A program made the translations under genes and the position numbers. The notes beneath the pieces are model-generated. The model did no database searches and was not told the DNA's origin. It saw nothing but the letters and a program-made list of their open reading frames with translations. Shown here in pieces: positions 586 to 45,000 of a stretch of 64,000 nt of DNA. The stretch's first letter is position 1; each line of letters begins with the position of its first letter. The stretch is from an uncultured virus (IMG/VR IMGVR_UViG_3300030329_002238) (taxonomy: Duplodnaviria; Heunggongvirae; Uroviricota; Caudoviricetes): the IMG/VR virus record IMGVR_UViG_3300030329_002238; one strand, written 5' to 3'.

Positions 586-818
586 ACGTTAGCATTCAAC
601 AAGAGACTGAACGTTTGATAAATGTTCATTCTGGTGGAGTCAATCCCCATGAAACTCATATGTTATTTGACGACTTTGATGATGTAGAGATGTTTATACT
701 TATGTGTGACTTTGTTAGATATAAGTATTGTGACAGATATCTATTATATTACTTACAAAGTTCATGGAATTTCCGATGGGGAAGAAATCTTCCCCTTGGA
801 ATAGGTCCCTTTTGTTAG
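582..818 (+). CDS. Hypothetical early protein, paralogue family A
   Basis: ATG at 582 with GAGGAG RBS, ATGA overlap with the previous stop; first 23 nt identical to the ORF at 340. Confidence 0.7.
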   Translation: MNVSIQQETERLINVHSGGVNPHETHMLFDDFDDVEMFILMCDFVRYKYCDRYLLYYLQSSWNFRWGRNLPLGIGPFC

Positions 819-906
819 GGATTGTAGTTTGATTAAACCTCGACGATGTATGTTGGGTGTTTTTTCATATTTTTTAATAACCAGCTATTTATAAGGAGAA
901 ATTATT

Positions 907-1632
907 ATGGCTAAATCACAATTTGACCCAAGTGAATTGGAAACTGAAGAGTTACTTACACCTGAAACGACTGATAAAGACGCTTTCAATGATGATACTT
1001 TAGCAGACCCTGAGGGTGCTGAAGCTAGAGAACCTCAAAACAGAGGCACTCTGTATCCAACATATCTATATCGTGACTATAAAGTCGGCGAAAACGATGC
1101 GTTGGTTCCTAATCAATCAGCTATTGATGCAGTTATGGCTATCTTTGAAGAGAAAGCTGAAACACCAGTTGCTGAAGGTAAGGAGAAGCAATTTGCTAAA
1201 GACCTTAAAACAGTTGTAGCTGGCAGAAAGCCACTACTAGCTGTTGATGCACCATCATCTGGTATTCAATGCCTTCGTGAGATGACTAATGCATGGAGTG
1301 AGTTTGCTAGTCTAGTATATGACTATATAAATTCTTCTCAATCGCATAGTAAAGAAACCCAAATGCCTGATTGGCTACTTCAACGTGAAGCCAAAATGGT
1401 AGACATGGGCTACAAAGCAAGGCTATTGAGAGATGCTAATTCTGAATTATTCAGCGACTATAACTTACCCGGTAAGTTTGAGCTGAATAGAACAAGAGTT
1501 AGACAATCAATCGAATCTAGGTTCGAAAGATTAGCAGCTTGGCATACTTCCCAGCATAGAGAATCTACTGCTGGCGATAAGATGCAGAAAGCGAGCTCTG
1601 AATTCGCACAAAGTATTGCGGATAACGCTTAA
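907..1632 (+). CDS. Hypothetical protein (241 aa), acidic N-terminus
   Basis: TAAGGAG RBS; long ORF; no family recognised. Confidence 0.8.
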   Translation: MAKSQFDPSELETEELLTPETTDKDAFNDDTLADPEGAEAREPQNRGTLYPTYLYRDYKVGENDALVPNQSAIDAVMAIFEEKAETPVAEGKEKQFAKDLKTVVAGRKPLLAVDAPSSGIQCLREMTNAWSEFASLVYDYINSSQSHSKETQMPDWLLQREAKMVDMGYKARLLRDANSELFSDYNLPGKFELNRTRVRQSIESRFERLAAWHTSQHRESTAGDKMQKASSEFAQSIADNA

Positions 1633-1720
1633 ATAGTTTTATGAGTTGACTTAAGCATAGAAGAAGGTGGTAAAAAATAACCCCACAGTATGAGCAACTA
1701 TGCAAAGTAACTCACTAGAA

Positions 1721-1733
1721 CTCCCCCGGAGCA
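1721..1733. repeat. CTCCCCCGGAGCA dispersed motif, copy 1
   Basis: Exact copies at 8983-8995 and 10009-10021; one-mismatch copy at 11281-11293. Confidence 0.8.
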
Positions 1734-1793
1734 AAAAGATAGAGAAGTTTGTCTATTTAATCTCTATCTTATAGAAGAAATAGACTAGAAATC

Positions 1794-1845
1794 GCCCAGT
1801 AAGCTGTCTTGAATCATCAAAAGCAGAGCTTGCTGGGCTTTTTTT
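1794..1845 (+). terminator. Rho-independent terminator
   Basis: GCCCAGTAAGCT/AGCTTGCTGGGC stem followed by T7. Confidence 0.85.
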
Positions 1846-1874
1846 ATGCCAACAAGGAATAAGAATTAACACAA

Positions 1875-2207
1875 CCAATGATGTAGTTCTGGGAAGGTTG
1901 GTAAACTTCACGGTGCTGAAGGTTCATTGGAAGCACCACTAACACTAGGCCTAATTTGTGCAGTATTAAAAGACGCTAAGTGGGCACGATAGAGCGATTA
2001 CCTACTTCTGATCGTTAATTTAATAACATTGCCCACTAATGCAAATCTGGCGAAATGTTATTAAAAAAGAAGTAAATAGCCAAGGGTTTTATTCAATATT
2101 ATTGGTTTACCTTCATTGAGGGATTAGCTCACCCAAGAAGCTAGGAACGAGTTAGTGCAGAGTGGTATCCTTAAATTGCCACTTTGCACGTTTTTATTAA
2201 CCAATAA
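1875..2207 (+). ncRNA. Candidate structured RNA(s) with interleaved stems
   Basis: Multiple 6-13 bp complementary segments, several interleaved; no ORF in the track. Confidence 0.5.
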
Positions 2208-2258
2208 AGGAACCGATTTATGAGAACATTACCATTAAATTTAGAAAGGAGAATAACT

Positions 2259-2663
2259 ATGGGATTAGATCAATATGGTGGTTGGTTACAAAAACCAACT
2301 AAAGAAGAACAATTACATAGCAAAATTGTAAATCAACCTATATTTGAACATAACTGTGAGTTTGACTGGCGTAAACATGCAAAATTACAAAAGTTTATGG
2401 AAGACATATGGTATACCCGAGAAACTGACGGGGAAGACATGTTTAATGGTCAAACATTATTACTCACTAAGGAAGATATATTAAATTTGCAACAGGTTTT
2501 ATTAAATGATAATTTACCTGAATCTGAAGGTGGGTTCTTTTTTGGACATCAATTTCAAGATGAGTCTGCTAAACAATACAAAGAACAAGATCTAGAATTC
2601 TGTAAAGAAGCACTCAAATGGCTAGATGAAGGCAAAGAAGTATTTTATGAGTGCTCGTGGTAA
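2259..2663 (+). CDS. Conserved phage protein of the MGLDQY...WRKH...Y.CSW type
   Basis: AAGGAG RBS before ATG 2259; motif pattern recalled from a widespread phage hypothetical family. Confidence 0.75.
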   Translation: MGLDQYGGWLQKPTKEEQLHSKIVNQPIFEHNCEFDWRKHAKLQKFMEDIWYTRETDGEDMFNGQTLLLTKEDILNLQQVLLNDNLPESEGGFFFGHQFQDESAKQYKEQDLEFCKEALKWLDEGKEVFYECSW

Positions 2664-2665
2664 AA

Positions 2666-2860
2666 ATGAACATTGAACAAGAAAATAAACGGCTATTAGA
2701 TGTTTGCTTACAAAAACATGACTTTATTGGTTTTTACCATAGTTCAATGCTACCAAGTAATGCTGAACCTTTACCTTGGTTTAAAATGATGTGTGACTAT
2801 ATAGCTTATAATGCTGTCGACATTTATGAATATAATCAATGGTGTAAAGAACGTAGGTAG
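2666..2860 (+). CDS. Hypothetical early protein, paralogue family A (divergent)
   Basis: MNIEQENKRLLDV...FKMMCDYIAY resembles the ORFs at 340 and 582. Confidence 0.6.
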   Translation: MNIEQENKRLLDVCLQKHDFIGFYHSSMLPSNAEPLPWFKMMCDYIAYNAVDIYEYNQWCKERR

Positions 2861-2951
2861 GGATGTTATAGAGAGTAGGACGACTTCCTGGCGAGGAAGA
2901 GTAAGATAGGCCACGCTATAATTACCCCTACCGTTTTTATTTTAAGTTCCC

Positions 2952-3062
2952 GAAGTATGTAATAGACACGACCTTGTGGGTGTAATTGGTATATACCGTA
3001 AGATGCTGAGTTAATCAAAGCAACCCCTCAGTCCAACTGATACCGTCAATGTTACATACTTC
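2952..3062 (+). ncRNA. Boxed stem-closed RNA unit 1
   Basis: GAAGTATGTAATA/TGTTACATACTTC closing stem; boxes GACACGACC and TGATACCGTCAA. Confidence 0.7.
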
Positions 3063-3072
3063 ACTAGTTTCC

Positions 3073-3168
3073 GAAATACACAATAGACACGACCAGGTAC
3101 CAGCTGCAGCGAAGTGAACACGAGTACACGGGCGTTCACCCTTTGACACCGTCAATGTTGTGTATTTC
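3073..3168 (+). ncRNA. Boxed stem-closed RNA unit 2
   Basis: GAAATACACAATA/TGTTGTGTATTTC closing stem, compensatory changes relative to unit 1; boxes GACACGACC and TGACACCGTCAA. Confidence 0.7.
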
Positions 3169-3300
3169 ACCAAACAAAAGAACCCTTGCAAAGGTAGGAG
3201 GTTACACCAAAATCCCGGTAGACTAGCGTGTGTAATCATATAGTCAAAGAAGGTCGCACCTTCCATGCACAATGTTCCTCCGATTTTTGCATAAGTTCCC

Positions 3301-3493
3301 GTAATGTGCAGTTAATGAAACGACCACTGACAGCCTGCATTGTAATGATATATCACGCATGGCGAGGAGTTGCATTAACAGCTGGCCTCTAAAAGGGCGT
3401 AAAACAACCTTAGGTCTGATACATAGGTAGTGGTTTGCTGAATTTAAAACTTAAGCACAAACCCGAAAAAACTGAACCCTAACTGTACATTAC
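3301..3493 (+). ncRNA. Boxed stem-closed RNA unit 3 (long)
   Basis: GTAATGTGCAGTTA/TAACTGTACATTAC closing stem; GAAACGACC and TGAACCC boxes; same AAGTTCCC leader as unit 1. Confidence 0.6.
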
Positions 3494-3583
3494 AACCCTG
3501 CGACAGTATATGTCGCATGTGTAAGTTATTATCCTACGATGATATTTTTTATGTATTTCTATAAACCAAATAAGGAGTAAATT

Positions 3584-4618
3584 ATGGCACAAGAAATGAA
3601 TATCCCCCCAATTAAGGCTCAAGATTTATCAAAAGAAATTATTGATAATGTTCGAGCTGGTATTAATACATTTGTCTGGGGTCCCCCAGGTATAGGTAAA
3701 TCACAATTAATGCATCAAGTTGCAAGTAAATTAGAAAGACCAATATTGGACTTTCGTGCAAATTTATTTGATCCAGTAGATGTGCGTGGAATACCTTTTC
3801 ACGAAGCTATGGAAGGAACTAATATGACATATTGGGCACCACCTAGCATCTTCCCTTACGAGCATAGAGATTCACCAGAAGGTATTTTCTTTCTAGATGA
3901 ATTAACTACAGCACCTACAGCCACACAAAATGCTTTCTTACAACTATGTCTAGACGGAAAAGTTGGTGATTACAATTTACCAAATGGCTGGTCAATAGTT
4001 GGTGCAAGTAACAGATTAGCAGATATGGCAGCTGTTTATGAAATGACATCAGCTATGAAAGATAGATGGCTTCATTATGTATTAGAACCTAATGTAGAAA
4101 ATTGGTGTGAATGGGCAGCTGAAAATAACATATCAGATGTTATAACTTCTTTTATAAGATTTAGACCAAATTTATTACATGATTTTGATCCTACCTATAC
4201 TGCATTTCCAACTCCTAGAAGTTATGAAGTTTTAAATAAGAAACTACAAATGAATGATAATTCAGAAGAAGCTAGATTCTTTGCTGGAGTATCAGCTATT
4301 TTAGGACAAGGTGCAGCAGGTGAATTTGTAACGTTTAAAGAAAACAGAGACAAAATGCCTGATATAGAGAGCATCATTAGACAACCTAATGCAGCAAAAG
4401 TTCCTAAAGATGAACCTGCAATCATGTATGCAATAGCAGGTGCATTAGCAGCTAAAGCTACATCTGATAACTTTGACAAAATATGTACTTATGCAGGACG
4501 TATGGCTCCAGAGTTTCAAGTAGTTTTAATGAGAGATTCATTGTCTAGAACCAGATCATTGGGATCGCACCCTGCATATCAGCAGTGGGTTAGTAAAAAC
4601 GCAACGGAGATATTGTAA
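3584..4618 (+). CDS. MoxR-type AAA+ ATPase
   Basis: Walker A GPPGIGKS, Walker B FFLDE, sensor GASN, MKDRW; partner vWA gene downstream. Confidence 0.9.
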   Translation: MAQEMNIPPIKAQDLSKEIIDNVRAGINTFVWGPPGIGKSQLMHQVASKLERPILDFRANLFDPVDVRGIPFHEAMEGTNMTYWAPPSIFPYEHRDSPEGIFFLDELTTAPTATQNAFLQLCLDGKVGDYNLPNGWSIVGASNRLADMAAVYEMTSAMKDRWLHYVLEPNVENWCEWAAENNISDVITSFIRFRPNLLHDFDPTYTAFPTPRSYEVLNKKLQMNDNSEEARFFAGVSAILGQGAAGEFVTFKENRDKMPDIESIIRQPNAAKVPKDEPAIMYAIAGALAAKATSDNFDKICTYAGRMAPEFQVVLMRDSLSRTRSLGSHPAYQQWVSKNATEIL

Positions 4619-8981: not shown

Positions 8982-9027
8982 GCTCCCCCGGAGCAAGGAA
9001 AATATAGAACATTAACCAGGAGGATTA

Positions 9028-10836
9028 ATGATAACAATAACATTAGATTTTGAGACATATTACGATGTCAATTATTCGCTTACAAAGATGCCCACTCCAG
9101 TGTACGTCAACCATGATGACTTTAAAGTATGGGGTGTAGGTATAAAAGTCGAAGACCAAGAAACTGTATGGCTACAACCAGATGAAATAGAAGCAGAATT
9201 TGCTACTTACAACTGGGAAGACGTAGCTCTTGTGTGTCATAACACGCCATTTGACGCTTATATACTCACACAACGTTATGGAATAAAAGATGTAGGGCGT
9301 TATTACGATACAGCAGCGATGAGTCGTGGCTTGTATCCTTCGCAAAGTGCTAGCTTGTCTGCACTTGCAGAACGCCTCTGGCCCAACGATGTAAGTATGC
9401 GTAAGGGAGACGAACTTGTTAATGCCAAAGGTATACGTGATTTAACTGTCGAACTTGATAAAGAAATAGGTGGTTATTGTATTCAAGATGTTGACCTTAC
9501 ATATGCAGCCTGGCAAAGAATGTGTACAGGCTATCCAGAAAAAGAGTTACAGCTTATAGATCTAACAACACGTATGTATGTTGAACCTAAAATGATTCTA
9601 GATCCTGAAGTATGTGAAGCACATAGAGACGCACATAAAAAAGCGGGTGATAATGCGGTACGTAACTCAGGTATAGATAGAGATATTCTTAGTTCAAATC
9701 CAAAGTTTGCACAATACATCGAAGAAGAGCTGGAGATTGTAGTACCAACTAAAAAGTCTCCACGTACAGGTAAAATGATCCCGGCCCTAGGTAAAACCGA
9801 TTCGGCATATATACAAATGTGTAATATGTACCCGAACTACAAACATATCTGGGACGGACGAAGTGCAGTAAAAAGTAGAATAGAAGAAACCCGAGCCGAA
9901 AGATTCTTATCATCTATAAATAAAGATGGAACATTTTCTGCCCCCCTTAAATATTATGCTGCTCATACAGGAAGATTTGGGGGAACTGAAAAGATTAACT
10001 TACAAAATCTCCCCCGGAGCAGTGAGTTGAGACGTGCAATACAAGCTCCAGCAGGGAAAATGATGTATGTAGCTGACCTATCTAATATAGAAGCAAGAAT
10101 GTTAGCTTGGTTAGCAAATGAACCTTACTTACTTACGAGCTTCAAAAACCAGGTAGATGTGTACAGCGAATTTGCATCTCAAATATATGACCGACCAATT
10201 ACTAAAGAAGATAAACTTGAACGTTATGTAGGCAAAACCGCAGTACTTGGTCTTGGCTATGGTATGGGCTCCGATAAGTTTAAGTATACACTTTCAACCG
10301 GATCACCATCTGTTGATGTAAGTGATGCAGCAGCTAAAACTATTGTAAATCAATACCGAAGTTATTATGCAAACATACCGAACTTATGGTCTCAATGTAA
10401 ACAACTGTTATACAACATGCTTGACCAGCGTCAAACAGGTGTAACATATGGACCATTGACCATAGGTCTTCACCAAATAACCTTACCTAATGGTATGGCT
10501 CTTAAATATCCGATGCTTACATACAGCCCCAGGGACGGTCAGTTTATGTACATGTCTTATAAAAAATCAGAAAGGCTCTATGGCCCAAAACTTACAGAGA
10601 ATATTATCCAGGCACTTGCTAGAATTGTTATCACAGATCAAATGCTTATACTTGAGCAAGATCCATTATTCGATGTTGTGCTAACAGTTCACGATGAAAT
10701 TATACTTACAGGGCCGGATACAGATTGTGATGTACACATGGATAAGATATTAGAAGTTATGAAAACCCCACCCGATTGGTGTAAAGACCTTCCATTAGAC
10801 GCAGAAGGAGGGTATGATGTTTGTTACTCTAAATAA
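9028..10836 (+). CDS. polA: Family A DNA polymerase with 3'-5' exonuclease domain
   Basis: Exo I LDFET, Exo II HNTPFD, Exo III YCIQD; TGRF, INLQNLPR, motif A DLSNIEAR, motif B RYVGKTAVLGLGYG, motif C VHDE. Confidence 0.95.
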   Translation: MITITLDFETYYDVNYSLTKMPTPVYVNHDDFKVWGVGIKVEDQETVWLQPDEIEAEFATYNWEDVALVCHNTPFDAYILTQRYGIKDVGRYYDTAAMSRGLYPSQSASLSALAERLWPNDVSMRKGDELVNAKGIRDLTVELDKEIGGYCIQDVDLTYAAWQRMCTGYPEKELQLIDLTTRMYVEPKMILDPEVCEAHRDAHKKAGDNAVRNSGIDRDILSSNPKFAQYIEEELEIVVPTKKSPRTGKMIPALGKTDSAYIQMCNMYPNYKHIWDGRSAVKSRIEETRAERFLSSINKDGTFSAPLKYYAAHTGRFGGTEKINLQNLPRSSELRRAIQAPAGKMMYVADLSNIEARMLAWLANEPYLLTSFKNQVDVYSEFASQIYDRPITKEDKLERYVGKTAVLGLGYGMGSDKFKYTLSTGSPSVDVSDAAAKTIVNQYRSYYANIPNLWSQCKQLLYNMLDQRQTGVTYGPLTIGLHQITLPNGMALKYPMLTYSPRDGQFMYMSYKKSERLYGPKLTENIIQALARIVITDQMLILEQDPLFDVVLTVHDEIILTGPDTDCDVHMDKILEVMKTPPDWCKDLPLDAEGGYDVCYSK

Positions 10837-10871: not shown

Positions 10872-11048
10872 GTGAAAAACTTAATATTAACAAGGAGGAA
10901 GGGAGAGAAAATATACATACACGCTGAAGGAGCTGTCCTGGCGGTATGTACAGTAACAGGATTAGGTACAAAACAAGTTAAATTAGCTTTCGAAGCTGAT
11001 CCAACAATAAAGATTGATAGAGAAGAAATCTATCAAGACAAATTATGA
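10872..11048 (+). CDS. csrA: CsrA/RsmA family translational regulator (58 aa, not in ORF track)
   Basis: GTG start after AAGGA; MKNLILTRRKGEKIYIHAEGAVLAVCTVTGLGTKQVKLAFEADPTIKIDREEIYQDKL matches the CsrA pattern LILTRR.GE...QV......REEIYQ. Confidence 0.88.
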   Translation: MKNLILTRRKGEKIYIHAEGAVLAVCTVTGLGTKQVKLAFEADPTIKIDREEIYQDKL

Positions 11049-11077: not shown

Positions 11078-13561
11078 ATGGAACTTATATTTTTAAGCTC
11101 TAAACAAAAATTAGTTAAAGAAATTTCAACTCAGGGTGTAACGCCCTATCCATTAGTAAAAAACTTTACATCACACACTGAGATGGTGAATGACTGTGAT
11201 GAATTTTACGATGCACTTACAACACACGCGCAGCAGGGCCATTGTTTGCATAAAGGAGTGCTAAAGAAAAAATTAAAAAACTCCCCCAGAGCAGGTATAG
11301 CAGATCGCAATGCCCCGACCGATTACATAGTATTTGATTTAGACGGATTACATTTACCCAATTGCAATGTTACGAATGTAATAGAAGAAGATGATATTAA
11401 AACTATAGCAAAACAGTTTGTACATCTTTTACCATCAGAATTCGATGATGTAAGTTACATAGCACAAGCCAGCGCCAGCCTAGGAAATAAAGGGAACAAT
11501 ATATCAATGCACTTATTCTTTATGCTTGATAGACCTGTATATCCAAGAGCTTTAAAAGAATGGTTTCGATCTTTAAATTATGAAATCCCTATAATAGCCG
11601 AACAATTATCTTTATCTTCAAATGGACAATCTTTAACTTATCCGATAGATATATCAGTATCTGACAACTCTAAACTTATTTATATTGCCCCACCTAAATT
11701 TACTGGTGTACAAGACCCGGTATCTGGTTCACGATTTGTAAAGATTAACCGTGGATCATCGACCGTTGACATATTCCCATTACTCAAGAATGTTAACCGA
11801 GAACGTATAACTAATCTTGGTATTCAAATAAAAAATAACTTACGTAAAGAAGCCGGCTTACCAAAAAGAAATGCTAAAACACAGAACCTAAGTATTGGAG
11901 ATGAGTTTGTAGAACTATTAGATAATCCTGATAAAGTTACAATACAAGTGTCACGGATCTCTGAGCCGTATGTAAACTGTAATGTTAATGGAGGAGACAG
12001 CGGTGGATATTATTTCTTATTAACCAACCCCCATTATATGTACAACTTCAAGGGAGAACCTATATGGGAAATAGAAAAAGCCGACCCCGAATTCTATAGG
12101 TGGATATTCGAAGAATTTGAAAATGATATAAGCAAAGAAAAGAACCTAAAGCCCGTAGTATTAAGAGACTTTTTTACTGACACATACTATAACGGATTGT
12201 TTAATACTAAATTACAACAGTTTGATGATAAGTTCCCACTAACCCCAACTAATAAAACTAGTTTAGAAGGATTTATGAAAACTCATAATCGTCCTACCCC
12301 AGAATTTATTCCCGATGCCCGTGTAGTATTTGATCCCTCCGATCCCACGGGCATCAACCTTACAGAAGTCCCTTATTACGTGAACATGTACCGTCAGAGT
12401 GAGTATATGCTTAACTTACAAAAACCTGATGAGGATCTAGAATACGGTACAGCAATCAAATTAGTAGACTCAACACCAAATATTTATAAATTAATATCAC
12501 ACATACTTGGAGGCGCCCCGGCCGAGTTTGAACACTTTATTAATTGGCTTGCTTACATATACCAGAATAAAAACAAAGCTATGACAGCGTGGATACTTAC
12601 AGGCGTCCCGGGCACGGGTAAAGGTTTGTTCATACATAAAGTATTAAAACCTTTATTTGGAGAAGCCCAAGTACCTATGAGGGCTTTAGAAAATATAGAA
12701 GAACACTTCAACTTATATATGAGAACAGCATTATTCCTAGCAGTAGATGAGTTCCGAATGGGTGATTCAGGCAATATAGGTAAAATGGCTGATAAATTAA
12801 AACACCAAATAACCGAACCAAACCTCACAATTCGTGCAATGCGTACAAATCAGGTAGAGCTTCCGAGCTTTTGCAACTTCTTATTCTTAACCAACCGAGC
12901 CGATGCAGTAAAAATAGAAGAAGGCGACAGACGTTACAACGTAGCCCCCCGGCAAGAACGTAAGTTGGAAGAAGTATATCCAGAGTTACTTACAAACATC
13001 CAGGAGCTGCACCTGGAGTTGTACAAACTAGCAGGCATATTAGAAACATTCAAAGTAGACGAGCGTATGGCTCACACAGTATTAGAAAATACTGCTAAAC
13101 AAGAGATGAGACAGGTCAGCATGTCTGTATTAGAAGAATTTGCAACAGCTATAAAAAGCGGAGATTTACCATTCTTTACCGAGATACTAGACATACCACT
13201 TACAAACGCGTTCGATGCTGGTGGTATAAGTACAGCACAAAGATATGTAAAGAATTGGATAGCTACAGCAGGGGAAGAACTAGTTATTCCTATGCCACAT
13301 TTCAAAATAGTCTATGACATACTTACAGACAGCAAAAATAAAATGTCTGTAAGAGACTTTACAAAAGCCATGTCACGCCTTAATATAAAAGCAAGTCGTA
13401 AGAGAACCGGTGGCGACAGGACAACTTCAGCCCCCAGGGGAGTTGTAATAACTTGGCAAATAACGGAAAGTATTAAAGAAACACTAATAAAGGACTATTT
13501 TGACTCTAATGACAGATCACTCCTTGAAGACAGTACAGCTAACGAGCGACAAGCGGGCTGA
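11078..13561 (+). CDS. Primase-helicase (prim-pol-like N-terminus, SF3/DUF5906-like C-terminus)
   Basis: VFDLDG and MHLFF in the N-terminus; Walker A GVPGTGKG, Walker B AVDE, LTN, DRRY. Confidence 0.85.
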   Translation: MELIFLSSKQKLVKEISTQGVTPYPLVKNFTSHTEMVNDCDEFYDALTTHAQQGHCLHKGVLKKKLKNSPRAGIADRNAPTDYIVFDLDGLHLPNCNVTNVIEEDDIKTIAKQFVHLLPSEFDDVSYIAQASASLGNKGNNISMHLFFMLDRPVYPRALKEWFRSLNYEIPIIAEQLSLSSNGQSLTYPIDISVSDNSKLIYIAPPKFTGVQDPVSGSRFVKINRGSSTVDIFPLLKNVNRERITNLGIQIKNNLRKEAGLPKRNAKTQNLSIGDEFVELLDNPDKVTIQVSRISEPYVNCNVNGGDSGGYYFLLTNPHYMYNFKGEPIWEIEKADPEFYRWIFEEFENDISKEKNLKPVVLRDFFTDTYYNGLFNTKLQQFDDKFPLTPTNKTSLEGFMKTHNRPTPEFIPDARVVFDPSDPTGINLTEVPYYVNMYRQSEYMLNLQKPDEDLEYGTAIKLVDSTPNIYKLISHILGGAPAEFEHFINWLAYIYQNKNKAMTAWILTGVPGTGKGLFIHKVLKPLFGEAQVPMRALENIEEHFNLYMRTALFLAVDEFRMGDSGNIGKMADKLKHQITEPNLTIRAMRTNQVELPSFCNFLFLTNRADAVKIEEGDRRYNVAPRQERKLEEVYPELLTNIQELHLELYKLAGILETFKVDERMAHTVLENTAKQEMRQVSMSVLEEFATAIKSGDLPFFTEILDIPLTNAFDAGGISTAQRYVKNWIATAGEELVIPMPHFKIVYDILTDSKNKMSVRDFTKAMSRLNIKASRKRTGGDRTTSAPRGVVITWQITESIKETLIKDYFDSNDRSLLEDSTANERQAG

Positions 13562-19804: not shown

Positions 19805-19975
19805 TTAATGTGTTTTTTCTAAATATTTTTTAACTTTATCTTCTACAGCGTGTGCAATCCACATGTAAGTAGGTCCAGTGTATGTCCACGCTTCATTAGT
19901 TGAAGTTTTAGGATCATCCTTTACATACCTTCCAGTTTTTGTACGCGCTCTTTTCTTTACTGTTTTAGTTGTCAT
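19805..19975 (-). CDS. Small basic protein (56 aa, not in ORF track)
   Basis: MTTKTVKKRARTKTGRYVKDDPKTSTNEAW...; RAR...G....DDP.T..NEAW pattern recalled from marine phages. Confidence 0.65.
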   Translation of the reverse strand: MTTKTVKKRARTKTGRYVKDDPKTSTNEAWTYTGPTYMWIAHAVEDKVKKYLEKTH

Positions 19976-20487
19976 AACAAACTATCTCCTGGTTGCCAAC
20001 TACAAGCAGTAAGCCCACCGGCTTTCAATGCTTGTAAAGTTCTAATTATCTCGTCAATATTTCTCCCTGTATCTAAAGCATTAACTGATATATGTTGTAT
20101 AGTATTGTCTGGGTCTACAATAAAAGTAGCCCTAAAACAAACACCATTTTCATCATCAACAATACCTAATTCATTAGATAGAAATAATCCTGTATCAGCA
20201 GCTAAAGGGTGGGCGATATGTTTTATCTGCTCATTAGTCTGTTTCCAGTTTAATTTACAGAATTCATTATCACCACTAAACCCAACTACTTCCACACCCT
20301 CAACTTCATCTCCTATTCTATCCATTTGTTCAATTTCAGTAGGACATATAAATGTAAAATCTTTTGGGTAAAAATAGAACACTGACCATTTATCTAAATA
20401 AGCAGATGAGTCTATAGTTTTTATGGTATTAGAATCGTCAACCCCTTCAAGTTTGAATAAGGGGAATTTTTCATTTATTTGTATCAT
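19972..20487 (-). CDS. ahpC: 2-Cys peroxiredoxin (AhpC/TSA)
   Basis: FYFYPKDFTFICPTEI, FRATFIVDP, GRNIDEIIR, resolving Cys in ACSWQPG. Confidence 0.95.
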   Translation of the reverse strand: MIQINEKFPLFKLEGVDDSNTIKTIDSSAYLDKWSVFYFYPKDFTFICPTEIEQMDRIGDEVEGVEVVGFSGDNEFCKLNWKQTNEQIKHIAHPLAADTGLFLSNELGIVDDENGVCFRATFIVDPDNTIQHISVNALDTGRNIDEIIRTLQALKAGGLTACSWQPGDSLL

Positions 20488-39085: not shown

Positions 39086-42000
39086 CTACCAAAGGGTGTA
39101 GTATACAGGAACTTGTTCCTTCCAGAATCTTGAATCAAGAGGACCATATTTAAATAGGTCGAAAACTTTACCAGAAGTAGGACCTAATATATCTGCCCCT
39201 GTTTCATACGGCCCACCAAAACTATGATCACCAGGTAGTAATGGGAAAAGTATCCCAAAAGCCCCCAAAATTCCACTCCTATCAATAAGCTCCGCAAACC
39301 ATGTACCCCAATCCATATTATCCGTGTGAAAGTGTTGATCCTTCATCTCTACTCCAGGTAATGGTCCAGCTAATACATATTTAATCCATTCTTTTAATTC
39401 TAGCCCCATTATAGTTAAAGGTAAAACAGTAAAAGCCATCATAGTTAAAGGAACAGCGGCCCCTCCAATACCTTGCTCTCTAAACCTATTTTTTATCTCT
39501 CTATATTGCCCCATAACTATAGTTTGCCCATATGCATAGAAGAAACCTTTAAGCTGCCAAACTAAAGCAAAATAAGGGTTACTAGCCCATGTAGGTCTTT
39601 GAGCTGCATTAGGTCTAATTATTGATTCATTAACAAATTGATAAATAGCTTGAGATGCTTTTTCACCTTCAGGAGTATTAAAATCAAACCCACTTTTCTC
39701 CCAAGCCAATACTTCTGCCCTTGTTATATTAAGCTGTTCTAACCAACGGTCAGTAGTTACCCTATCAGTTAACACATCATGTGCAGTACTAACTAAAAAT
39801 CTTTTACCCATACCTGCAGCAAATACCCTAGTAAACCTAGTGAATTGATCTAACATTATTGCTTTAAAGAAATAGTCTGTTAACCTTTTGGAGTTAGGGG
39901 TCATATAATCCATTTCAGCTGCATGTATATACATCATAGATAATGAATCTTGAGTAATGGCACCAACATCTAAAGCAAACTGTACTGCTGCATCTTTATC
40001 ATTAAAATATTGTCTATACTCTTTAGCCGCATTTTGAAAAGAATTAAAAGAATTACTACGTAAAAGTGGACCAGCTAAATCTGGAAAAGACGCAAGTACA
40101 GCAAAAGTTAAAGTTGTAAATACGTTTGCAGCTATTCCCCAACTATTAATTTTTCTAGCTAAAGGGTCCATAGGAGTACCAAGTTTACCTAGCATTGCTC
40201 TTATAGCTTCCCTAGCTTTAGGCTGCTGGTGGGGTTCAAGTTTGCTAATTTTACTCTCAAACCACGCTGCACCACCCACTCTTTCGTACTCTACTCTTTT
40301 AGTAATAGCCCTTAAGTAATTCATGGTTGCTGTAAAACCATCTTCTAGTACACCTATTTCTCTTAATTCACTAGTAGCAAATCCATAGGCTTTGTAAATT
40401 GGGTTACCGTCCTCATCAACTTGTTCAACTCCGTTTTCATTCACAGCTGGTGAAATTTCATACTTCATAGTACGGGCTAATGCATTAGGTAGCCCCAACT
40501 TAATAGATTTAGAATCTATATCTTGCTCATGTTTTGATAATGCATCAGTAAGATTATCATTTGGGTCTCTACTAAGTATATCTAAAACAAATAATTCAGC
40601 CCATTCTTCAGGTGTAACCCTCTGCGCTTCTACGCCTTCAGGTGTCCTAAGCCCCTCATAAACTACAAGACCATCTATATCTGGTCTTATTTCCCCTCGC
40701 GTCCCTTTGTTACTTTTTATACGCCCTTCTCTTAGTTTATTTGCTACATAATTAACAAAAGCATTTCTAAGACCATCATCATTTGCCATATCCCATACTT
40801 TTAATGACCTACTAAAATAACTAGCAACACCAATTTCTTTACCTTTTCTATCTCTTAATATAGTTTCAAGGAACTTGGGTGAATCTTCAAATTCAACTTC
40901 TTGCAAATAAGGATATAATACGTTCCTTTTCCACATCCTTAACTTATGCCCCATAGGACTTAATTTAGAAAGTTTTTCATCTGAGATTCTTTCATCTTCT
41001 GCATAGGCAAATGCCTTATCATGTTTCTCAGTAAACTGCCTACTAAACATCCTGTTTACATCTAGTTCAAGTATCTTAGCTAGTTGATTATTGAACTGAG
41101 AGAACTTTCTATCTTTGGCATCAAGTAATCCTAATTCTTGACCTTTTTCTGCTACTGTTCTTGATCTACGTTGTATTCTATTCGCCATCTCCCTGCCTAC
41201 AGGGTTACCTTCTTTATCTTTCATACGCCCCAAAAAACTAGAAGCAGGTTGAACAATTTTTGCGAGGAATGAAGCCCCATTAGGATTATTTCTAACAATC
41301 TCGTTATATTTCTTAGCTGTTTCTTTTCTTACAGTTTTCCAAGCAGCTTTTGCTAAACCAAAATTATTTCTTTCTGCCTCAACAACTTCTTCAACCATGT
41401 TAAACAAGTGTTCTTTTTCTTCAAATCCTAAATAACCCCGCTGAAATTCAAGGTTCTTTGTTGCCTTAAATGACTTAGCTAAATCATCTGCAAACTCATT
41501 GAAAGCTTCACTAGGAACAAATCTCCCTGCAAAAATCTTATCTGCTGCTACACCTTCCATAAGTTTAGTCCAAGCTCTTTTTATTTTATTTGCTAATCGT
41601 GCAAAAAAACCTTCTGCAAAATTTTGAGGTTTAGTTTTTCTACCGTCCCTAAGAGTTTTTATTAACCAGGCTGCAGTTTGATCAGCGAACCACTCTTCAA
41701 AACCTTTTGTTTGATCTTCGACTCTTCCAGGCTCCTCGTTCCTATATCTAGTGTTAAGAGGTTGAGCTGCTTTAAAGTCTTTCCATATTTTTTCTTTTAC
41801 GCCCTTATTAAAATGTAAACTGTCTAACTCGTTAAAAGCTATAACGTGCCCAAGCTCATGAGCTAAAGCGATCATAACCTGTGCAGAACCTAATAGATCT
41901 TTTTGAGTTTTATTTAATTTAGCATAATCATCTGCTCGGATATTAGAGGGTCTCCCTGTTCTTGCAGAATATGTATCTATTACAATAATATACTCCTTGT

Positions 42001-45000
42001 CCCCCCTCATCTTAAAGGTCGCCCCTCTTTGGCCCCATTTATTTTTCTGTTTCTCCTTCCATAATTTATTTAAAACTCTTTCTGTCTTACCATCCCTATA
42101 TAGAAGCTTTAATAATGCATCTTCTCTTTTACGCTTAGTATTCCACTCTGGATTAATGTCATCGTAAGTTAAAAAAGTTAGGTTTGCTTTTATACCAAAA
42201 AATTTAAATTTCTTAAGAAGAGCTAACATAGGCCCACTATATTTACCCATAGACTCTTTGAATGCTTTACTAGTACTAACAAGTTGTTTACCTGCCTCCC
42301 TAGTATCTTTTGTGCCTATTGCGTCTTGGTCTACTCTTAAGCCCCCTATAAGCCCCTCTTTTACATATTCTGGTATAAAGCTCCTAGAAGATGCTTGTAA
42401 AGAACCTGGGTTTAACTTTTCACTAAGCCTTATTTGTGCTCTAAACTCTGCTTCTCTTTTTGCTGTTGGCATGTCTGAAAGCTCACCTAGAATTGAATCC
42501 GCTATTTCTGGATCAGATTCTCCTGTATCTGGATCCATTTCTATATCTTGTGTATTTATTGAATAGCCGTTTTTTTCAGCATAGTCTTGTAGTGTTACTA
42601 TTATAAATTTATAGTCTTCAACGCTGTCTACAATTGTTTCACCTGGCGTAAACTCATTAGTAGGTTGAAGATATATAGTCTCCGGAGATAACTTATCTAT
42701 ATCTGGCATTATTTCAACATACAGAGGTTTATACTGCTCCCAATTAGTATTTAAAACATTTTCATCACTATTTTTACCCCAAGAATTTTCTATAATTTCA
42801 TTTATTTGTTTTTCTCTGTTTTCTGATATTTCTCTAGGTCCAGCTATATTAACTGTGTCTATATTATGGGCTTTTAACCACACCCATATTTTTTCCTGAC
42901 TTTGAGGATTAACTAAAGTGGGCTTACCGAGCTCCCTAGCTTTTCTTATAGTGTAACCAGTTCCAGGAGTTATACCCGATCCATCACCTTCAGTAAAAAC
43001 TAAAGTTCCATCACTATTTATAATATTTTTATCGGTACGATCGTTATAGTTATCACTTTCTGCTTCTTCTAAACCAAGATCTTGTAGTTTCTTAGCATGC
43101 GTTGCTGGATTGGTGGCAGCACTCCTATACCCTAATGGGGCCGTGCCACCAGTCTCTATTCCTACTTTTTTAGCTGCATTTAACCCTATAAAATCAACGC
43201 CTGTTTGCCCACCACTAATAATTTTGCTAGGTTTTATGGCTTTGCCCCGGCTTTCTATTGCGCTCCTTGTCTCTTCAAGTGACTCCTTCCGGCGCTCTGC
43301 AAACTTATCATTTACTTCCGTTTCTAAATCTTCATAAGCCTGAAAATTACCCCATATTATACCGTCCAACTTTGTTAGAGGTACTTCACCTGTCTGAAGT
43401 TGTTCATTAACTATAGTATGCATAAGGGCTCTTATTTGTTCTCTATAATTTTTTATAGTCTCTAGACCTATGGCGTCAGCCGGTAATTTACCAGTTATAC
43501 CATACAAGTCAGCAAATGTAGCTCGTTTACCTAGTTTATAGTTAGAAGAAACTGCAGCCCTAGATTGAAGAAATATTTCTGGTGTAGCGTCTACAAGAGC
43601 TACAGAAGGAAGTAATGTATCCGTATCTTTATATTCTTTTTCTTCCTGTTTAGAAAGTTTTTTAAACTTATGGGTGTATAGTGGGTCATTACTATATCCA
43701 AAAGGTTCCTCTTGTTTTTTTAATTTAGTATCATGTATATTGGCATACCAACGCCCCGGTCTATAGTCTGCGTAGTTTACAGTATCAGTTTGTTCATAAA
43801 ATTTTACCCCATTCAGTCTATACTCATTATATTGTAGATGTGGTTGCTTCTGCTTTTCTAAAGTTTTAGGATAAGGGTTTTCTGTCCATTCAACATAAAT
43901 CCCGTGATTACCTACTAACAACCTAGAAAATTTAGGACCAAATATTTCTTTAAGTCGTGCTTTTATACCAGCAGCAACTTTTATAGTTGAATTGTCTTTT
44001 TGTATAGTAGCTTTTTTTAAAGTGGGGTAAGATCTTTTTAAGCCCTCTAAATGGGTTTTTCTTATACCTAAATTTATTTCTTCTATTTCTGCTTCAGAGT
44101 ATTCTTCTAAATATTTTAACCTATGTATAAAGCGCTGGTACAGTGGAACACCTCTATCTCCACCACCAGTTCTACCACCATACATAAACATGTTTGTATA
44201 GAAGTCGTTATAATCGAAGTGAATATAGTTTAATTCTTCAAATGCATCAAAAGCTTCTCTTTGGCTATTAAAACCTTCTGCCTTAAAGTCTTCTTTAATA
44301 ATCTCTTGAACTTTCTTTTGTTTGGGTTCCTCTATTAATCTATATAAACCAGCGTCTTTATCTTTTGCTATTCTAAATACATCTCCTTTCTCTCCTAATT
44401 TAGAACGCCTAGAAGTCATAGTTTTTTTACCAGATTTAACTAATTCCGCTGGCTCTGTAAAAGAAACTACAATTTCTTTTGTAGTGCTGGGCTTACTAGG
44501 TCTTACCCTAAAATCATATCCATATTTAGCTCCTAAAGCTAATACCGTCAATAAAGATGCCTGTCTAAAATCTCTATCCCCCTCTATAAACTTACCAAGC
44601 ATGTTACTTTGATTGACTGTAGTACCATACTTAGCAAATCCTAAAGGCATATGAATAATTTTTTCCTCTGCCCTAGAAAAGTTTTGTAATTTTTCATCGT
44701 AGGCTTTTTCTAAAAATAGAACTCTTTCAACAAACTCTGTTTTTATATCTTTCCTTCTTCTATCTTTTTTAGCTTTTTTAAACTCTGAAACTACTATTCC
44801 TTCTATACTTTCTCTTTCTGTTTTCTCTCTAAATTCTAAAGCTTTGTCTTCCGCCTTTTTTTTGCCTTCAGGAGTAAGCATAGTAAAGAAAGCTTCTCCT
44901 CTCATTCTTTCAGCGTCTGCATCTGTTTCTTTACCACTTACAGTAGCTGCGGCAAAAAACCTCTTAGTGAACTCTTCCTCAGTGATTGGTAACGGGCCCC

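What the first reader, a model, noticed from the sequence alone, without database searches (positions are those of the whole stretch)
1642..2207. Serial pseudoknot-like RNA folds in an ORF-free early intergenic region
Seen: at least three sets of interleaved stems. (a) 1736-1745/1761-1770 with loop 1751-1758 pairing 1778-1785. (b) CCAATGA 1875-1881/1924-1930 interleaved with GGTGCT 1912-1917/1932-1937. (c) AGTGGGCA 1979-1986/2030-2037 interleaved with TTTAATAACAT 2019-2029/2055-2065. A multibranch element closed by 2099-2107/2199-2207 contains a 13-bp hairpin (2155-2189). Established: type III toxin-antitoxin antitoxins (ToxI) are H-type pseudoknots, and phages can escape ToxIN using antitoxin mimics. 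Inference: this could be a library of decoy or nuclease-resistant RNAs expressed early, or one large undescribed ncRNA.
Basis: partly seen in the sequence, partly recalled or inferred. Interest (0 to 1): 0.75.

Follow-up and report, generated by a model that had tools for sequence, protein, structure and literature searches.

The report
Phage gene-end pseudoknot terminator RNA modules
A gene-free stretch of an uncultured marine phage is a chain of small folded RNA signals, and one of them, a knotted fold just ahead of a transcription stop signal, is kept by all relatives and absent from RNA databases, though its job is still inferred.

Summary
Comparison with relatives splits the gap into separate modules, not one RNA.

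- **(a) 1718-1845, real and conserved.** It has an invariant C-rich box, an H-type pseudoknot and an intrinsic terminator. Both pseudoknot stems are rebuilt with different letters in 11 distinct variants. It follows the stop codon of a 241-aa gene in 18 of 18 loci with sequence there. No Rfam family matches.
- **(b)** One reader stem has weak support; a different partner stem fits better.
- **(c)** A 132-nt insertion found only in near-identical relatives, so it cannot be tested.
- **(d)** The closing stem is not conserved. The 13-bp hairpin is a second terminator.

No tandem repeats and no ToxI-like organisation were found. My best reading, at 0.45, is cis-acting gene-end punctuation that shapes termination, read-through and 3'-end stability of an early message. 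Antitermination, a trans-acting small RNA or decoy, and a riboswitch remain possible. The motif is new but of a familiar kind, and its function is untested.

The parts
907..1632 (+). Gene for a 241-aa protein of unknown function; module a always follows its stop codon.
   Evidence: ORF. No Pfam or PHROG family. The AF2 model is helical with mean pLDDT 68 and has no fold match at E <= 0.001. Homologs in 25 metagenome loci. RNA-library contigs of 3 of 4 runs lie on it.
1633..1717 (+). ins1: an 85-nt portable hairpin-like insert between the stop codon and module a.
   Evidence: Present in the window, L021, L027-29, L034 and L031, and absent in 13 of 18 metagenome loci. It is 96-100% identical even where the flanking gene is about 69% identical. 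Fold z = -2.11 on +, -2.96 on -.
1718..1733 (+). C-box: an invariant 16-mer GAACUCCCCCGGAGCA. Positions 1721-1731 can form a 4-bp stem with a CCC loop.
   Evidence: Identical in 18 of 18 loci with downstream sequence, apart from one C>U in the loop in L041. No covariation, so the hairpin itself is unproven.
1736..1785 (+). H-type pseudoknot of module a. S1 is 1736-1745/1761-1770; S2 is 1751-1758/1778-1785. L1 carries UUU, S2 ends in UUU/AAA, and L3 is A-rich.
   Evidence: Eleven variants form S1 of 7-10 bp and S2 of 6-10 bp. G-U pairs occur in 5 variants, which fits the + strand read as RNA.
1786..1845 (+). A-tract UAGAAAU (1786-1792), GC-rich hairpin 1794-1838 and U7 (1839-1845): intrinsic terminator 1.
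   Evidence: RNAalifold on 12 sequences gives 6 pairs with compensatory changes, and the A-tract pairs with the U-tract. The terminator scan calls the homologous sites in L038 and L022. It did not list the window's own long-stem version.
1906..1937 (+). Module b: a small candidate H-type pseudoknot. S1 is CUUC 1906-1909 / GAAG 1918-1921; S2 is GGUGCU 1912-1917 / AGCACC 1932-1937.
   Evidence: 97.1% of cells paired, with one compensatory pair in each helix across 7 sequences. MFE z is only -0.95.
1941..2072 (+).
   Evidence: Present only in the window and L027-29. Absent in L021, L030, L033 and L034. An RNA-library contig joins 1940 to 2073. z = -2.62. No variation to test.
2111..2154 (+). Module d core. 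Hairpin UAGCUC 2125-2130 / GAGUUA 2149-2154, with a possible crossing helix 2111-2122 / 2132-2140, which would make it a pseudoknot.
   Evidence: The 6-bp helix is 100% paired with 1 compensatory change and 1 G-U to G-C change. In the crossing helix 7 of 9 pairs never vary, so it is only compatible, not shown. The MFE prefers a small alternative 5' hairpin.
2155..2198 (+). The 13-bp hairpin 2155-2167/2177-2189 plus the T-run 2191-2198: intrinsic terminator 2.
   Evidence: 91% paired with 2 compensatory pairs. In L034 the T-run is replaced, so there it is only a hairpin.
2259..2663 (+). Downstream gene (134 aa from the conserved MGLDQYGG start; the 2220 ATG is an upstream in-frame start).
   Evidence: In L038 and L041 the whole gap between the two genes is 136-138 nt, which is module a plus the ribosome-binding site.

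Best explanation
The gap 1633-2258 is a recombination-shuffled chain of separate RNA modules read on the + strand. The order is ins1, a, b, c, d.

Module a (1718-1845) is the only deeply conserved one. It is the gene-end cassette of the 241-aa early gene and has three parts:
- an invariant C-rich box;
- 4-6 nt later, a compact H-type pseudoknot whose U-rich loop 1, A-U-rich stem 2 and A-rich loop 3 fit a triplex-stabilised fold;
- an A-tract, a GC-rich hairpin and U7, which together form an intrinsic terminator.

Proposed mechanism: cis-acting punctuation.
1. RNA polymerase stops in part at the U7. This makes a short message for the 241-aa gene.
2. The pseudoknot is already folded when the terminator is transcribed. 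It acts as a rigid plug that insulates terminator folding from upstream RNA and from the terminating ribosome.
3. The plug is also a second barrier to 3'-to-5' exonucleases.
4. The fraction that reads through feeds the downstream replication-region genes.

Module d repeats the design, with a structured core abutting a second terminator.

Shown: the folds, their conservation, their position and the terminator anatomy. Inferred: partial termination, the barrier and insulator roles, and the need for read-through.
For: - Both pseudoknot stems are kept by compensatory change in 11 distinct variants. Each variant beats 999 or more of 1000 shuffles.
- G-U pairs in 5 variants fit the + strand read as RNA.
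- Module a lies after the stop codon of the 241-aa gene homolog in 18 of 18 loci with sequence there. It follows directly in 13 and after an insert in 5.
- It travels with that gene. A covariance model finds one copy in each of 22 related loci and none in 11 loci of more distant phages that keep only the downstream gene (regex).
- In L033 and L034 the mosaic break lies between a and d. The 241-aa gene is about 69% identical while the downstream gene is 93.9% identical.
- The terminator is real. Six pairs covary, and the A-tract is complementary to the U-tract. The scan calls it in L038 (12 pairs, T7) and in L022.
- In L038 and L041 only about 20 nt separate the U-tract from the ribosome-binding site. 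No sigma-70-like promoter is found in L038 1800-2300 or on the + strand of window 1633-2258. Downstream genes there therefore seem to depend on read-through.
- One RNA-library contig runs from 1716 across the terminator to 1901 (weak, because DNA can be present in such libraries).
- Earlier AI notes of this scan report small pseudoknots right after stop codons in other marine phages. These are leads only.
Against: - There are no mapped RNA ends.
- Three RNA-library contigs of the 241-aa gene, from three studies, stop inside the C-box. They end at window 1727, or after ...GGAG, or after ...CCGG. None stops at the pseudoknot or the terminator. This fits a processing site better than a plug, or it may be an assembly break.
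- The plug model does not explain why the 16-nt C-box is invariant.
- It also does not explain why C-box-like copies recur on the same strand at 8983, 10009 and 11281, and 45-170 nt upstream of the DNA polymerase gene in 7 of 7 close relatives.
- In L031, L058 and L059 about 165 nt separate the pseudoknot from the terminator.
- A terminator hairpin alone normally protects a 3' end.
- The promoter scan covers only sigma-70-type sites.
- In L034 the hairpin of module d has no T-run.
Confidence: 0.45

Rival explanations
1. Processive antitermination signal, in the manner of lambda nut or HK022 put. The C-box recruits a phage or host factor to the elongating polymerase, or the pseudoknot binds the polymerase itself. 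The polymerase then reads through terminator 1, terminator 2 and later stops.
For: - Its position matches nutR and putR (recalled): just after the first gene and just ahead of a terminator that separates it from the replication genes.
- Two strong terminators lie between co-oriented genes, with no recognisable promoter after them.
- The C-box is sequence-invariant, as a factor-binding site would be, and recurs on the early strand only.
- The pseudoknot does not overlap the terminator, so any effect on read-through could not work by alternative pairing.
Against: - No N-, Q- or RfaH-like protein was recognised in the ORFs scanned.
- No boxA-like motif was examined, and none is claimed.
- put RNA is two stem-loops, not a pseudoknot. 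This is recalled; in the search listing the putRNA structure paper PMC9378689 shows 0 occurrences of 'pseudoknot'.
- The C-box copies inside ORFs may partly reflect coding.
Confidence: 0.15
2. Trans-acting small RNA of about 110-130 nt. It would be cut from the 3' UTR at the C-box, or started within ins1, and would end at terminator 1. It would act on host RNAs or proteins, and this includes the reader's idea of a decoy for a host ribonuclease such as a type III toxin.
For: - The layout resembles Hfq-type small RNAs (recalled): a conserved 5' single-stranded or C-rich segment, a structured body, an A/U-rich stretch, and a terminator with a long U tail.
- RNA-library contigs of the upstream gene end in the C-box in 3 studies. 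That would fit cleavage there.
- GAAAU/AAAAU after the pseudoknot equals the reported ToxN cleavage consensus (PMC8860590 passages).
- ToxI-type antitoxins are triplex pseudoknots (PMC5086642 passages).
Against: - No tandem repeat unit and no Rfam antitoxin or sRNA family.
- The two AAAU sites are 8 nt apart (1778-1781 and 1789-1792), so they do not bracket a pseudoknot unit.
- The A-rich motif is explained by pairing with the U-tract.
- No promoter was found in ins1.
- The stems covary freely, so they cannot be seeds.
- No complementary target of the C-box was found on the late strand.
- I put the ToxI-mimic version alone at 0.05 or less.
Confidence: 0.15
3. Ligand-sensing riboswitch: a pseudoknot aptamer that controls the adjacent terminator.
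For: - Pseudoknot followed by terminator followed by gene is a common riboswitch layout.
- The U-rich L1 over an A-U stem recalls the SAM-II and preQ1-II type triplex pockets (recalled).
Against: - No Rfam riboswitch even at E <= 10.
- Few invariant unpaired nucleotides apart from the C-box.
- No overlap or alternative pairing between the aptamer and the terminator was seen.
- In L031, L058 and L059 about 165 nt lie between them.
- The element travels with the upstream gene, not the downstream one.
Confidence: 0.05
4. For fold (c), the closing stem of (d) and the CCAATGA/TCATTGG stem of (b): these are chance or lineage-specific complementarity in inserted DNA, with no conserved RNA function.
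For: - (c) is an indel found only in relatives that are 97.8-100% identical.
- The closing stem of (d) is 58% paired.
- The CCAATGA stem is absent in 2 of 7 sequences and never covaries.
- Stems of 6 bp or more are no denser than in shuffles.
Against: (c) still folds somewhat better than shuffles (z = -2.62, 3 of 200). Its two long stems, of 8 and 12 bp, are rare in shuffles.
Confidence: 0.6

Closest known systems
Intrinsic (Rho-independent) terminators and intercistronic mRNA-stabilising structures, such as REP elements and the 3' hairpins left by T7 RNase III (recalled)
   Same: - They sit at gene ends within an operon.
- They have a GC-rich hairpin plus a U-tract.
- They are expected to raise the level of the upstream message relative to downstream genes.
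   Different: - Here a covarying H-type pseudoknot and an invariant 16-nt C-rich box precede the terminator.
- None of the known classes has such a composite.
- No Rfam family matches.
Lambda nut and HK022 put antitermination sites
   Same: It is located after the first gene and ahead of a terminator that gates the replication genes. It combines a sequence-invariant small box with structured RNA.
   Different: It has no boxA/boxB or two-stem put architecture. No antiterminator protein was recognised. Activity is untested.
ToxI-type (type III) antitoxin RNAs and the phage pseudo-ToxI mimic (PMC3475682, listing only; PMC5086642 and PMC8860590, passages)
   Same: A compact pseudoknot with a likely base-triple core, and an A-rich GAAAU motif next to it.
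   Different: - It is single copy, about 50 nt, and not a tandem array of short repeats.
- The motif sites do not bracket a unit.
- It is tied to a terminator and to one phage gene.
Pseudoknot in the T4 gene 32 leader (as described in PMC10690425, passages)
   Same: A conserved phage mRNA pseudoknot attached to one highly expressed early gene.
   Different: The T4 element lies 5' of its gene and nucleates binding of the gene's own protein. Here the element is 3' of the gene, and the protein is helical and of unknown function.
PeSL (promoter-early stem-loop) cassettes of T4-type phages (recalled; named in earlier notes)
   Same: Small structured regulatory cassettes in early regions. They sit at mosaic junctions and are gained or lost between relatives.
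   Different: No early promoter was found in the modules. Module a is a pseudoknot with RNA-level covariation, not a simple stem-loop.

Membership tests
H-type RNA pseudoknot (module a) | Two helices, with the 5' strand of helix 2 lying in the loop of helix 1 and its 3' strand lying downstream. | tested here: met
   Exact complementarity in the window. The same topology holds in 11 of 11 distinct variants.
H-type RNA pseudoknot (module a) | Both helices are maintained by compensatory change. | tested here: met
   S1 shows both-side changes at 10 of 10 positions and S2 at 7 of 10. At most 1 of 1000 shuffles per variant gives both helices. The register differs by 1 nt between groups, so the counting tool could not be used on one alignment.
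Intrinsic terminator | A GC-rich hairpin directly followed by a U-tract on the transcribed strand. | tested here: met
   Hairpin 1794-1838 plus T7, with 6 covarying pairs. Hairpin 2155-2189 plus a T-run. The homologs were called by the scan in L038 and L022. The window's own sites were not listed by the simple scan.
Intrinsic terminator | It ends transcripts in vivo. | not testable with these tools
   Only assembled contigs of RNA libraries were available.
Type III antitoxin RNA (ToxI-like) or phage mimic | A tandem array of short direct repeats, each forming one pseudoknot. | tested here: not met
   0 tandem repeats in 1500-3700. No repeat family lies within 1633-2258.
Type III antitoxin RNA (ToxI-like) or phage mimic | Toxin cleavage motifs bracket each unit. 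| tested here: not met
   AAAU occurs at the start of the 3' strand of S2 (1778-1781) and in the linker (1789-1792), 8 nt apart. No such site lies at the 5' side of the pseudoknot in most variants.
Type III antitoxin RNA (ToxI-like) or phage mimic | Similarity to a described antitoxin RNA family. | tested here: not met
   No Rfam match at gathering score or at E <= 10.
Type III antitoxin RNA (ToxI-like) or phage mimic | It neutralises a cognate toxin of the host. | not testable with these tools
   The host is unknown. No relative was found in 185,579 species genomes.
Known riboswitch or ribozyme classes | A match to a curated covariance model. | tested here: not met
Riboswitch (generic) | The aptamer and the expression platform compete for shared nucleotides. 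| tested here: inconclusive
   No overlap was seen in the consensus fold. No dedicated search for alternative folds was made.
tRNA, tmRNA or tRNA-like | Cloverleaf or tmRNA domains. | tested here: not met
   ARAGORN finds 0 genes in the window.
nut/put antitermination site | It lies between an early gene and a terminator that gates downstream genes. | tested here: met
nut/put antitermination site | boxA/boxB motifs or the two-stem put fold, with read-through activity. | not tested
   No reference sequences were compared. Activity needs an assay.
PeSL-like regulatory cassette | A terminator-like stem-loop joined to an early promoter, at mosaic junctions. | tested here: inconclusive
   Terminators and mosaic junctions are present. 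No sigma-70-like promoter lies on the + strand of 1633-2258.

The most novel reading that the evidence does not exclude
The C-box plus triplex-type pseudoknot is one member of a widespread, undescribed class of 'gene-end pseudoknots' of marine phages. These would act on the transcription or decay machinery itself. One version is an RNA-based antiterminator. Another is a processing and capping signal: cleavage at the C-box frees a pseudoknot-capped downstream RNA or a ribonuclease-decoy small RNA. On this reading the elements are more than passive 3' structures.
Probability: 0.2. Interest if true: 0.8.

Novelty: new variant of a known kind. Interest (0 to 1): 0.55.

Why it matters
Phage early regions are full of unexplained gaps. 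Here one gap resolves into defined, testable RNA parts, and one part has unusually clean covariation for a pseudoknot.

If module a controls termination, read-through or message stability, it would be a compact new regulatory part. It would also be a clue to how uncultured marine phages set gene dosage along an operon. Similar stop-codon-proximal pseudoknots noted elsewhere in this scan suggest that the class may be general.

If instead it acts on RNA polymerase or on host nucleases, it would be a new mechanism.

Tried and rejected
- **Known RNA families.** Rfam at gathering score on the whole window, at E <= 10 on 700-3700, and at gathering score on 10 related loci gave nothing relevant. There are no tRNA or tmRNA genes.
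- **N4-type hairpin promoter for a virion RNA polymerase.** The 3009-aa virion protein has no match to solved chains except a SLOG-like domain, and Pfam gives only cpYpsA. Upstream-of-polymerase copies with CACC break the hairpin. Dropped.
- **Stop-codon read-through or frameshift signal.** The frames after the stop are not conserved in length or sequence between variants (read). Dropped.
- **CsrA sponge.** GGA density in the gap is 0.0128 per nt against 0.0136 for the early strand. Dropped.
- **Function of the 241-aa protein.** No Pfam or PHROG family. The ESM Atlas gives no hit at 0.9 or more. Foldseek against PDB gives nothing at E <= 0.001. No relative among 50,697 phage records.
- **Host or prophage.** 0 pattern matches and 0 protein relatives in the species genomes.
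- **Formal pair counting on module a.** MAFFT and covariance-model alignments keep two groups 1 nt out of register. I therefore counted per sequence in scripts.
- **Cross-sequence control.** Own arms pair better than foreign arms (S1 8.41 against 5.31; S2 7.91 against 6.01). However, 13 and 21 of 110 cross pairs reach the own value because related variants share stems.
- **Published catalogue of 10,006 viral structured RNAs (PMC10690425).** No occurrence of the C-box or of two contig ids in the 6 supplement files searched. Three further files were not searchable, so this is not proof of absence.
- **RNA-library contigs.** Parts of the stretch without cover (for example 2174-2355 and 2720-3265 in all 4 runs) say nothing.
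Full report
**Setting**

The window is most of the genome of an uncultured marine tailed phage.
- Small genes and replication genes lie on the + strand from 1 to about 18 kb. They include a MoxR-like ATPase, a VWA/metallopeptidase protein, a family-A DNA polymerase, a primase-like protein, a PD-(D/E)XK nuclease and an SNF2 helicase.
- Structural genes lie on the - strand from 19 to 62.6 kb.
- The nearest isolates by large terminase are Aeromonas phage phiA008 (48.7% identity) and the Pseudomonas KPP25 group (about 42%).
- Holders of the DNA are marine metagenomes.
- The finding lies in the largest ORF-free gap, 1633-2219. The gap sits between a 241-aa gene (907-1632) and a gene whose conserved start is at 2259.

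**Observation**

- The gap folds better than dinucleotide shuffles on both strands, more so on + (z = -5.19 against -3.89).
- Per module on the + strand, z is -2.11 (ins1), -4.67 (a), -0.95 (b), -2.62 (c) and -4.40 (d).
- Counting perfect stems gives a moderate excess at 8 bp or more (5 against 1.08; 1 of 300 shuffles).
- Interleaved pairs at 7 bp or more are also in excess (4 against 0.69; 7 of 300).
- There is no excess at 6 bp or more, and other tiles of the window hold as many stems.
- Stem density alone would therefore not carry the claim.

**Relatives**

I collected relatives from several sources:
- a 97% identical IMG/VR contig (G001 = L021);
- more distant viral contigs;
- 25 metagenome loci found through the 241-aa protein.

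Between the stop codon and the next gene the relatives differ by whole blocks. The gap is 136-138 nt in L038 and L041, 171-173 nt in L037, L039 and L040, 306-343 nt in others, and 609-737 nt in the window group. This divides the gap into five modules.

**Module a (1718-1845)**

Every one of the 18 loci with sequence after the stop codon carries the 16-mer GAACUCCCCCGGAGCA. One has a C>U change in the middle. In 13 loci it follows the stop codon directly. In 5 loci, and in the window, it follows an insert.

In 11 distinct variants the two helices are always there:
- S1 is 7-10 bp and S2 is 6-10 bp, in H-type topology.
- The letters differ between variants. For example, S1 reads AAGAUAGAGA, AGGAGAAGA, GAUUACUAGG, CUAAUAGG or UGUUAAGAC.
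- Ten of 10 S1 positions and 7 of 10 S2 positions show changes on both sides.
- For each variant, at most 1 of 1000 shuffles of its own sequence gives both helices at those places.
- G-U pairs in five variants would be C-A mismatches on the other strand, so the fold belongs to the + strand read as RNA.

The unpaired parts are not random:
- Loop 1 keeps UUU.
- Stem 2 always ends in UUU/AAA at the junction.
- Loop 3 is A-rich.

This is the pattern of pseudoknots stabilised by major-groove U-A-U and minor-groove A triples. That is an inference from recalled structures, not a test.

After the pseudoknot come UAGAAAU, a GC-rich hairpin (1794-1838) and seven U (1839-1845).
- In 12 sequences six hairpin pairs covary, and the A-rich linker pairs with the U-tract.
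- The simple scan calls the homologous sites as terminators in L038 and L022.
- It misses the window's own longer, interrupted stem.

A covariance model built from the variants finds exactly one copy in each of 22 related loci. It finds none in 11 loci of more distant phages that share only the downstream gene.

No Rfam family matches in the window or in ten related loci.

**Modules b, c, d and ins1**

*Module b.*
- The helix that crosses it best is CUUC 1906-1909 / GAAG 1918-1921. It changes to CUCC/GGAG in three relatives.
- Across the two helices 97.1% of cells are paired, and 7 of 500 shuffles reach the covariation score.
- This is weak support for a small pseudoknot. Its nested fold is no better than chance.

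*Module c.* The stretch 1941-2072 is absent from the 97% relative and from L030, L033 and L034. It is present only in copies that are 97.8-100% identical. An RNA-library contig also joins 1940 to 2073. Nothing can be said about its fold beyond z = -2.62.

*Module d.*
- The closing stem 2099-2107/2199-2207 is not kept (58% of cells paired).
- The 13-bp hairpin is kept, has two compensatory pairs and precedes a T-run, so it is a second intrinsic terminator.
- In L034 the T-run is replaced.
- Directly in front of the hairpin, UAGCUC 2125-2130 pairs with GAGUUA 2149-2154. L022 has UAGUUC/GAACUA there.
- A crossing helix 2111-2122/2132-2140 would make this a pseudoknot too, but it hardly varies, and the MFE prefers another small hairpin.

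*ins1 (1633-1717).* This is an 85-nt hairpin-like block. It is 96-100% identical in phages whose flanking gene is only about 69% identical. It is a portable insert, and no promoter was called in it.

*Mosaic pattern.* The high identity of d in L033 and L034 (about 90%) is explained by mosaicism. Their downstream gene is 93.9% identical to the window's, while the 241-aa gene is about 69% identical.

**What the gap is not**
- It is not one RNA. A strong terminator sits at 1794-1845, and the modules come and go independently.
- It is not a ToxI-like array. There are no tandem repeats, no repeat family within the gap and no sequence shared between the four folds.
- From the passages I read, type III antitoxins are arrays of short repeats, each bounded by toxin cleavage sites (AA/AU and GAA/AU), that fold into triplex pseudoknots (PMC8860590 and PMC5086642).
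- Module a shares the fold type and a GAAAU motif. However, the motif sites do not bracket a unit, and the motif doubles as the terminator's A-tract.

**Mechanism**

The anatomy says 'gene-end cassette of the 241-aa gene'. The cassette is always behind that gene, is inherited with it, and ends in a terminator.

In L038 and L041 only about 20 nt lie between the U-tract and the next ribosome-binding site, and no sigma-70-type promoter is found there. The window has none on the + strand of the gap either. The downstream genes therefore seem to be reached by reading through the terminator.

I therefore favour cis-acting punctuation, at 0.45. Partial termination gives a short message for the 241-aa gene. 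The pre-folded pseudoknot insulates terminator folding and blocks 3' exonucleases.

Two observations do not fit this comfortably and keep the rivals alive.

*First, the C-box.* It is invariant and recurs on the early strand only.
- It stands at 8983, which is 45 nt before the polymerase start.
- It stands at 10009, inside the polymerase gene. There it is written with four rare codons whose joint probability under the phage's own codon usage is 5.8e-6.
- It stands at 11281 with one change.
- Two related contigs have 3 and 4 copies, all on the early strand, with 0 for the reversed control pattern.
- All 7 relatives with 81% or more polymerase identity have a C[U/A]CCCCC[G/A]GAGCA box 45-170 nt upstream of the polymerase gene.
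- The exact hairpin is broken in five of those seven.

*Second, the contig ends.* Contigs of three RNA libraries from three studies that cover the 241-aa gene all stop inside the C-box. This could mean a processing site. It could equally be an assembly break where strains diverge, since contigs cannot show RNA ends.

These two points fit a factor-binding or cleavage site. That leads to the antitermination rival (0.15) or to a processed small RNA (0.15). A riboswitch is unlikely (0.05).

**Literature and earlier notes**
- I found no description of this motif. The searches listed no such element.
- The catalogue of 10,006 viral structured RNAs (PMC10690425) was read in passages and partly in supplements. 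It could not be fully searched.
- Earlier AI notes of this scan report small covarying pseudoknots just after stop codons in other uncultured marine phages, read there as gene-end signals.
- Those notes agree with my reading. They are unchecked leads, and no sequence overlap was found.

**Verdict**

The decoy-library reading is not supported.

Module a is a new, well-supported structured RNA motif of a familiar general kind, a gene-end or terminator-associated element. Its mechanism is open.

Noticed in passing
window 2861-3583 (units at 2945-3065, 3066-3171 and 3294 to about 3500); also L021, L022, L029, L033, L034, L037, L042: The second ORF-free gap is a tandem array of units of 100-200 nt. 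Each unit starts with AGUUYCCG, followed by a 10-bp closing stem; in the 11 units aligned, 7 of its pairs show compensatory changes. Most units share a conserved junction (AGACACGACC ... GAUACCGUCAAUG) around a 45-65-nt core that differs from unit to unit. Copy number differs between relatives. No Rfam match. An RNA-library contig covers 3318-3529. It looks like a family of scaffolded small RNAs of unknown function.
   Followed up: partly
window 8983-8993, 10009-10019, 11281-11291; G002 and G003 contigs: The C-rich box of module a recurs on the early strand only. It also lies 45-170 nt upstream of the DNA polymerase gene in 7 of 7 close relatives. Inside the polymerase gene it is spelled with four rare codons (joint probability 5.8e-6). 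It may be a factor-binding or processing site.
   Followed up: partly
window 10872-11045 (+): A 58-aa ORF between the polymerase and primase-like genes matches the CsrA family (PF02599, E = 5.5e-11, 42.7 bits against a cut-off of 27). This is a phage-encoded RNA-binding regulator. GGA motifs are not enriched in the gap studied.
   Followed up: partly
window 1633-1717: An 85-nt hairpin-like insert is 96-100% identical in phages whose neighbouring gene is about 69% identical. It looks like a portable element, possibly with a TA target duplication. That last point is my reading of the junctions and was not tested.
   Followed up: partly
window 1716-1733 in RNA libraries X15, X16, X17: Contigs from three metatranscriptome studies that cover the 241-aa gene all end within the C-box, and a fourth run's contig spans it. 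This is a weak hint of an RNA end or of an assembly break.
   Followed up: no
window 3532-3541; L022, L024, L025, L033, L034, L037, L042 between the terminators and the next genes: A motif CCCU[A/G/U]CGAUG, followed 5-8 nt later by a UAAAAU-like hexamer, precedes several early genes in relatives and the ATPase gene in the window. It is a possible phage-specific promoter. In the window itself it is not more frequent than chance.
   Followed up: partly
L021, L033 and L034, between module d and the downstream gene: These relatives carry an extra ORF of about 70 codons (starting MGFEIEK or MEFEIEK) that the window lacks. At that place the window has only 53 nt.
   Followed up: no
window 39086-48115 (-) and 19972-20487 (-): The 3009-aa virion protein carries a circularly permuted YpsA/SLOG domain (PF12694, E = 8.6e-25) and has no match to any solved RNA polymerase. 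A 170-aa AhpC/TSA peroxiredoxin gene lies at 19972-20487.
   Followed up: no
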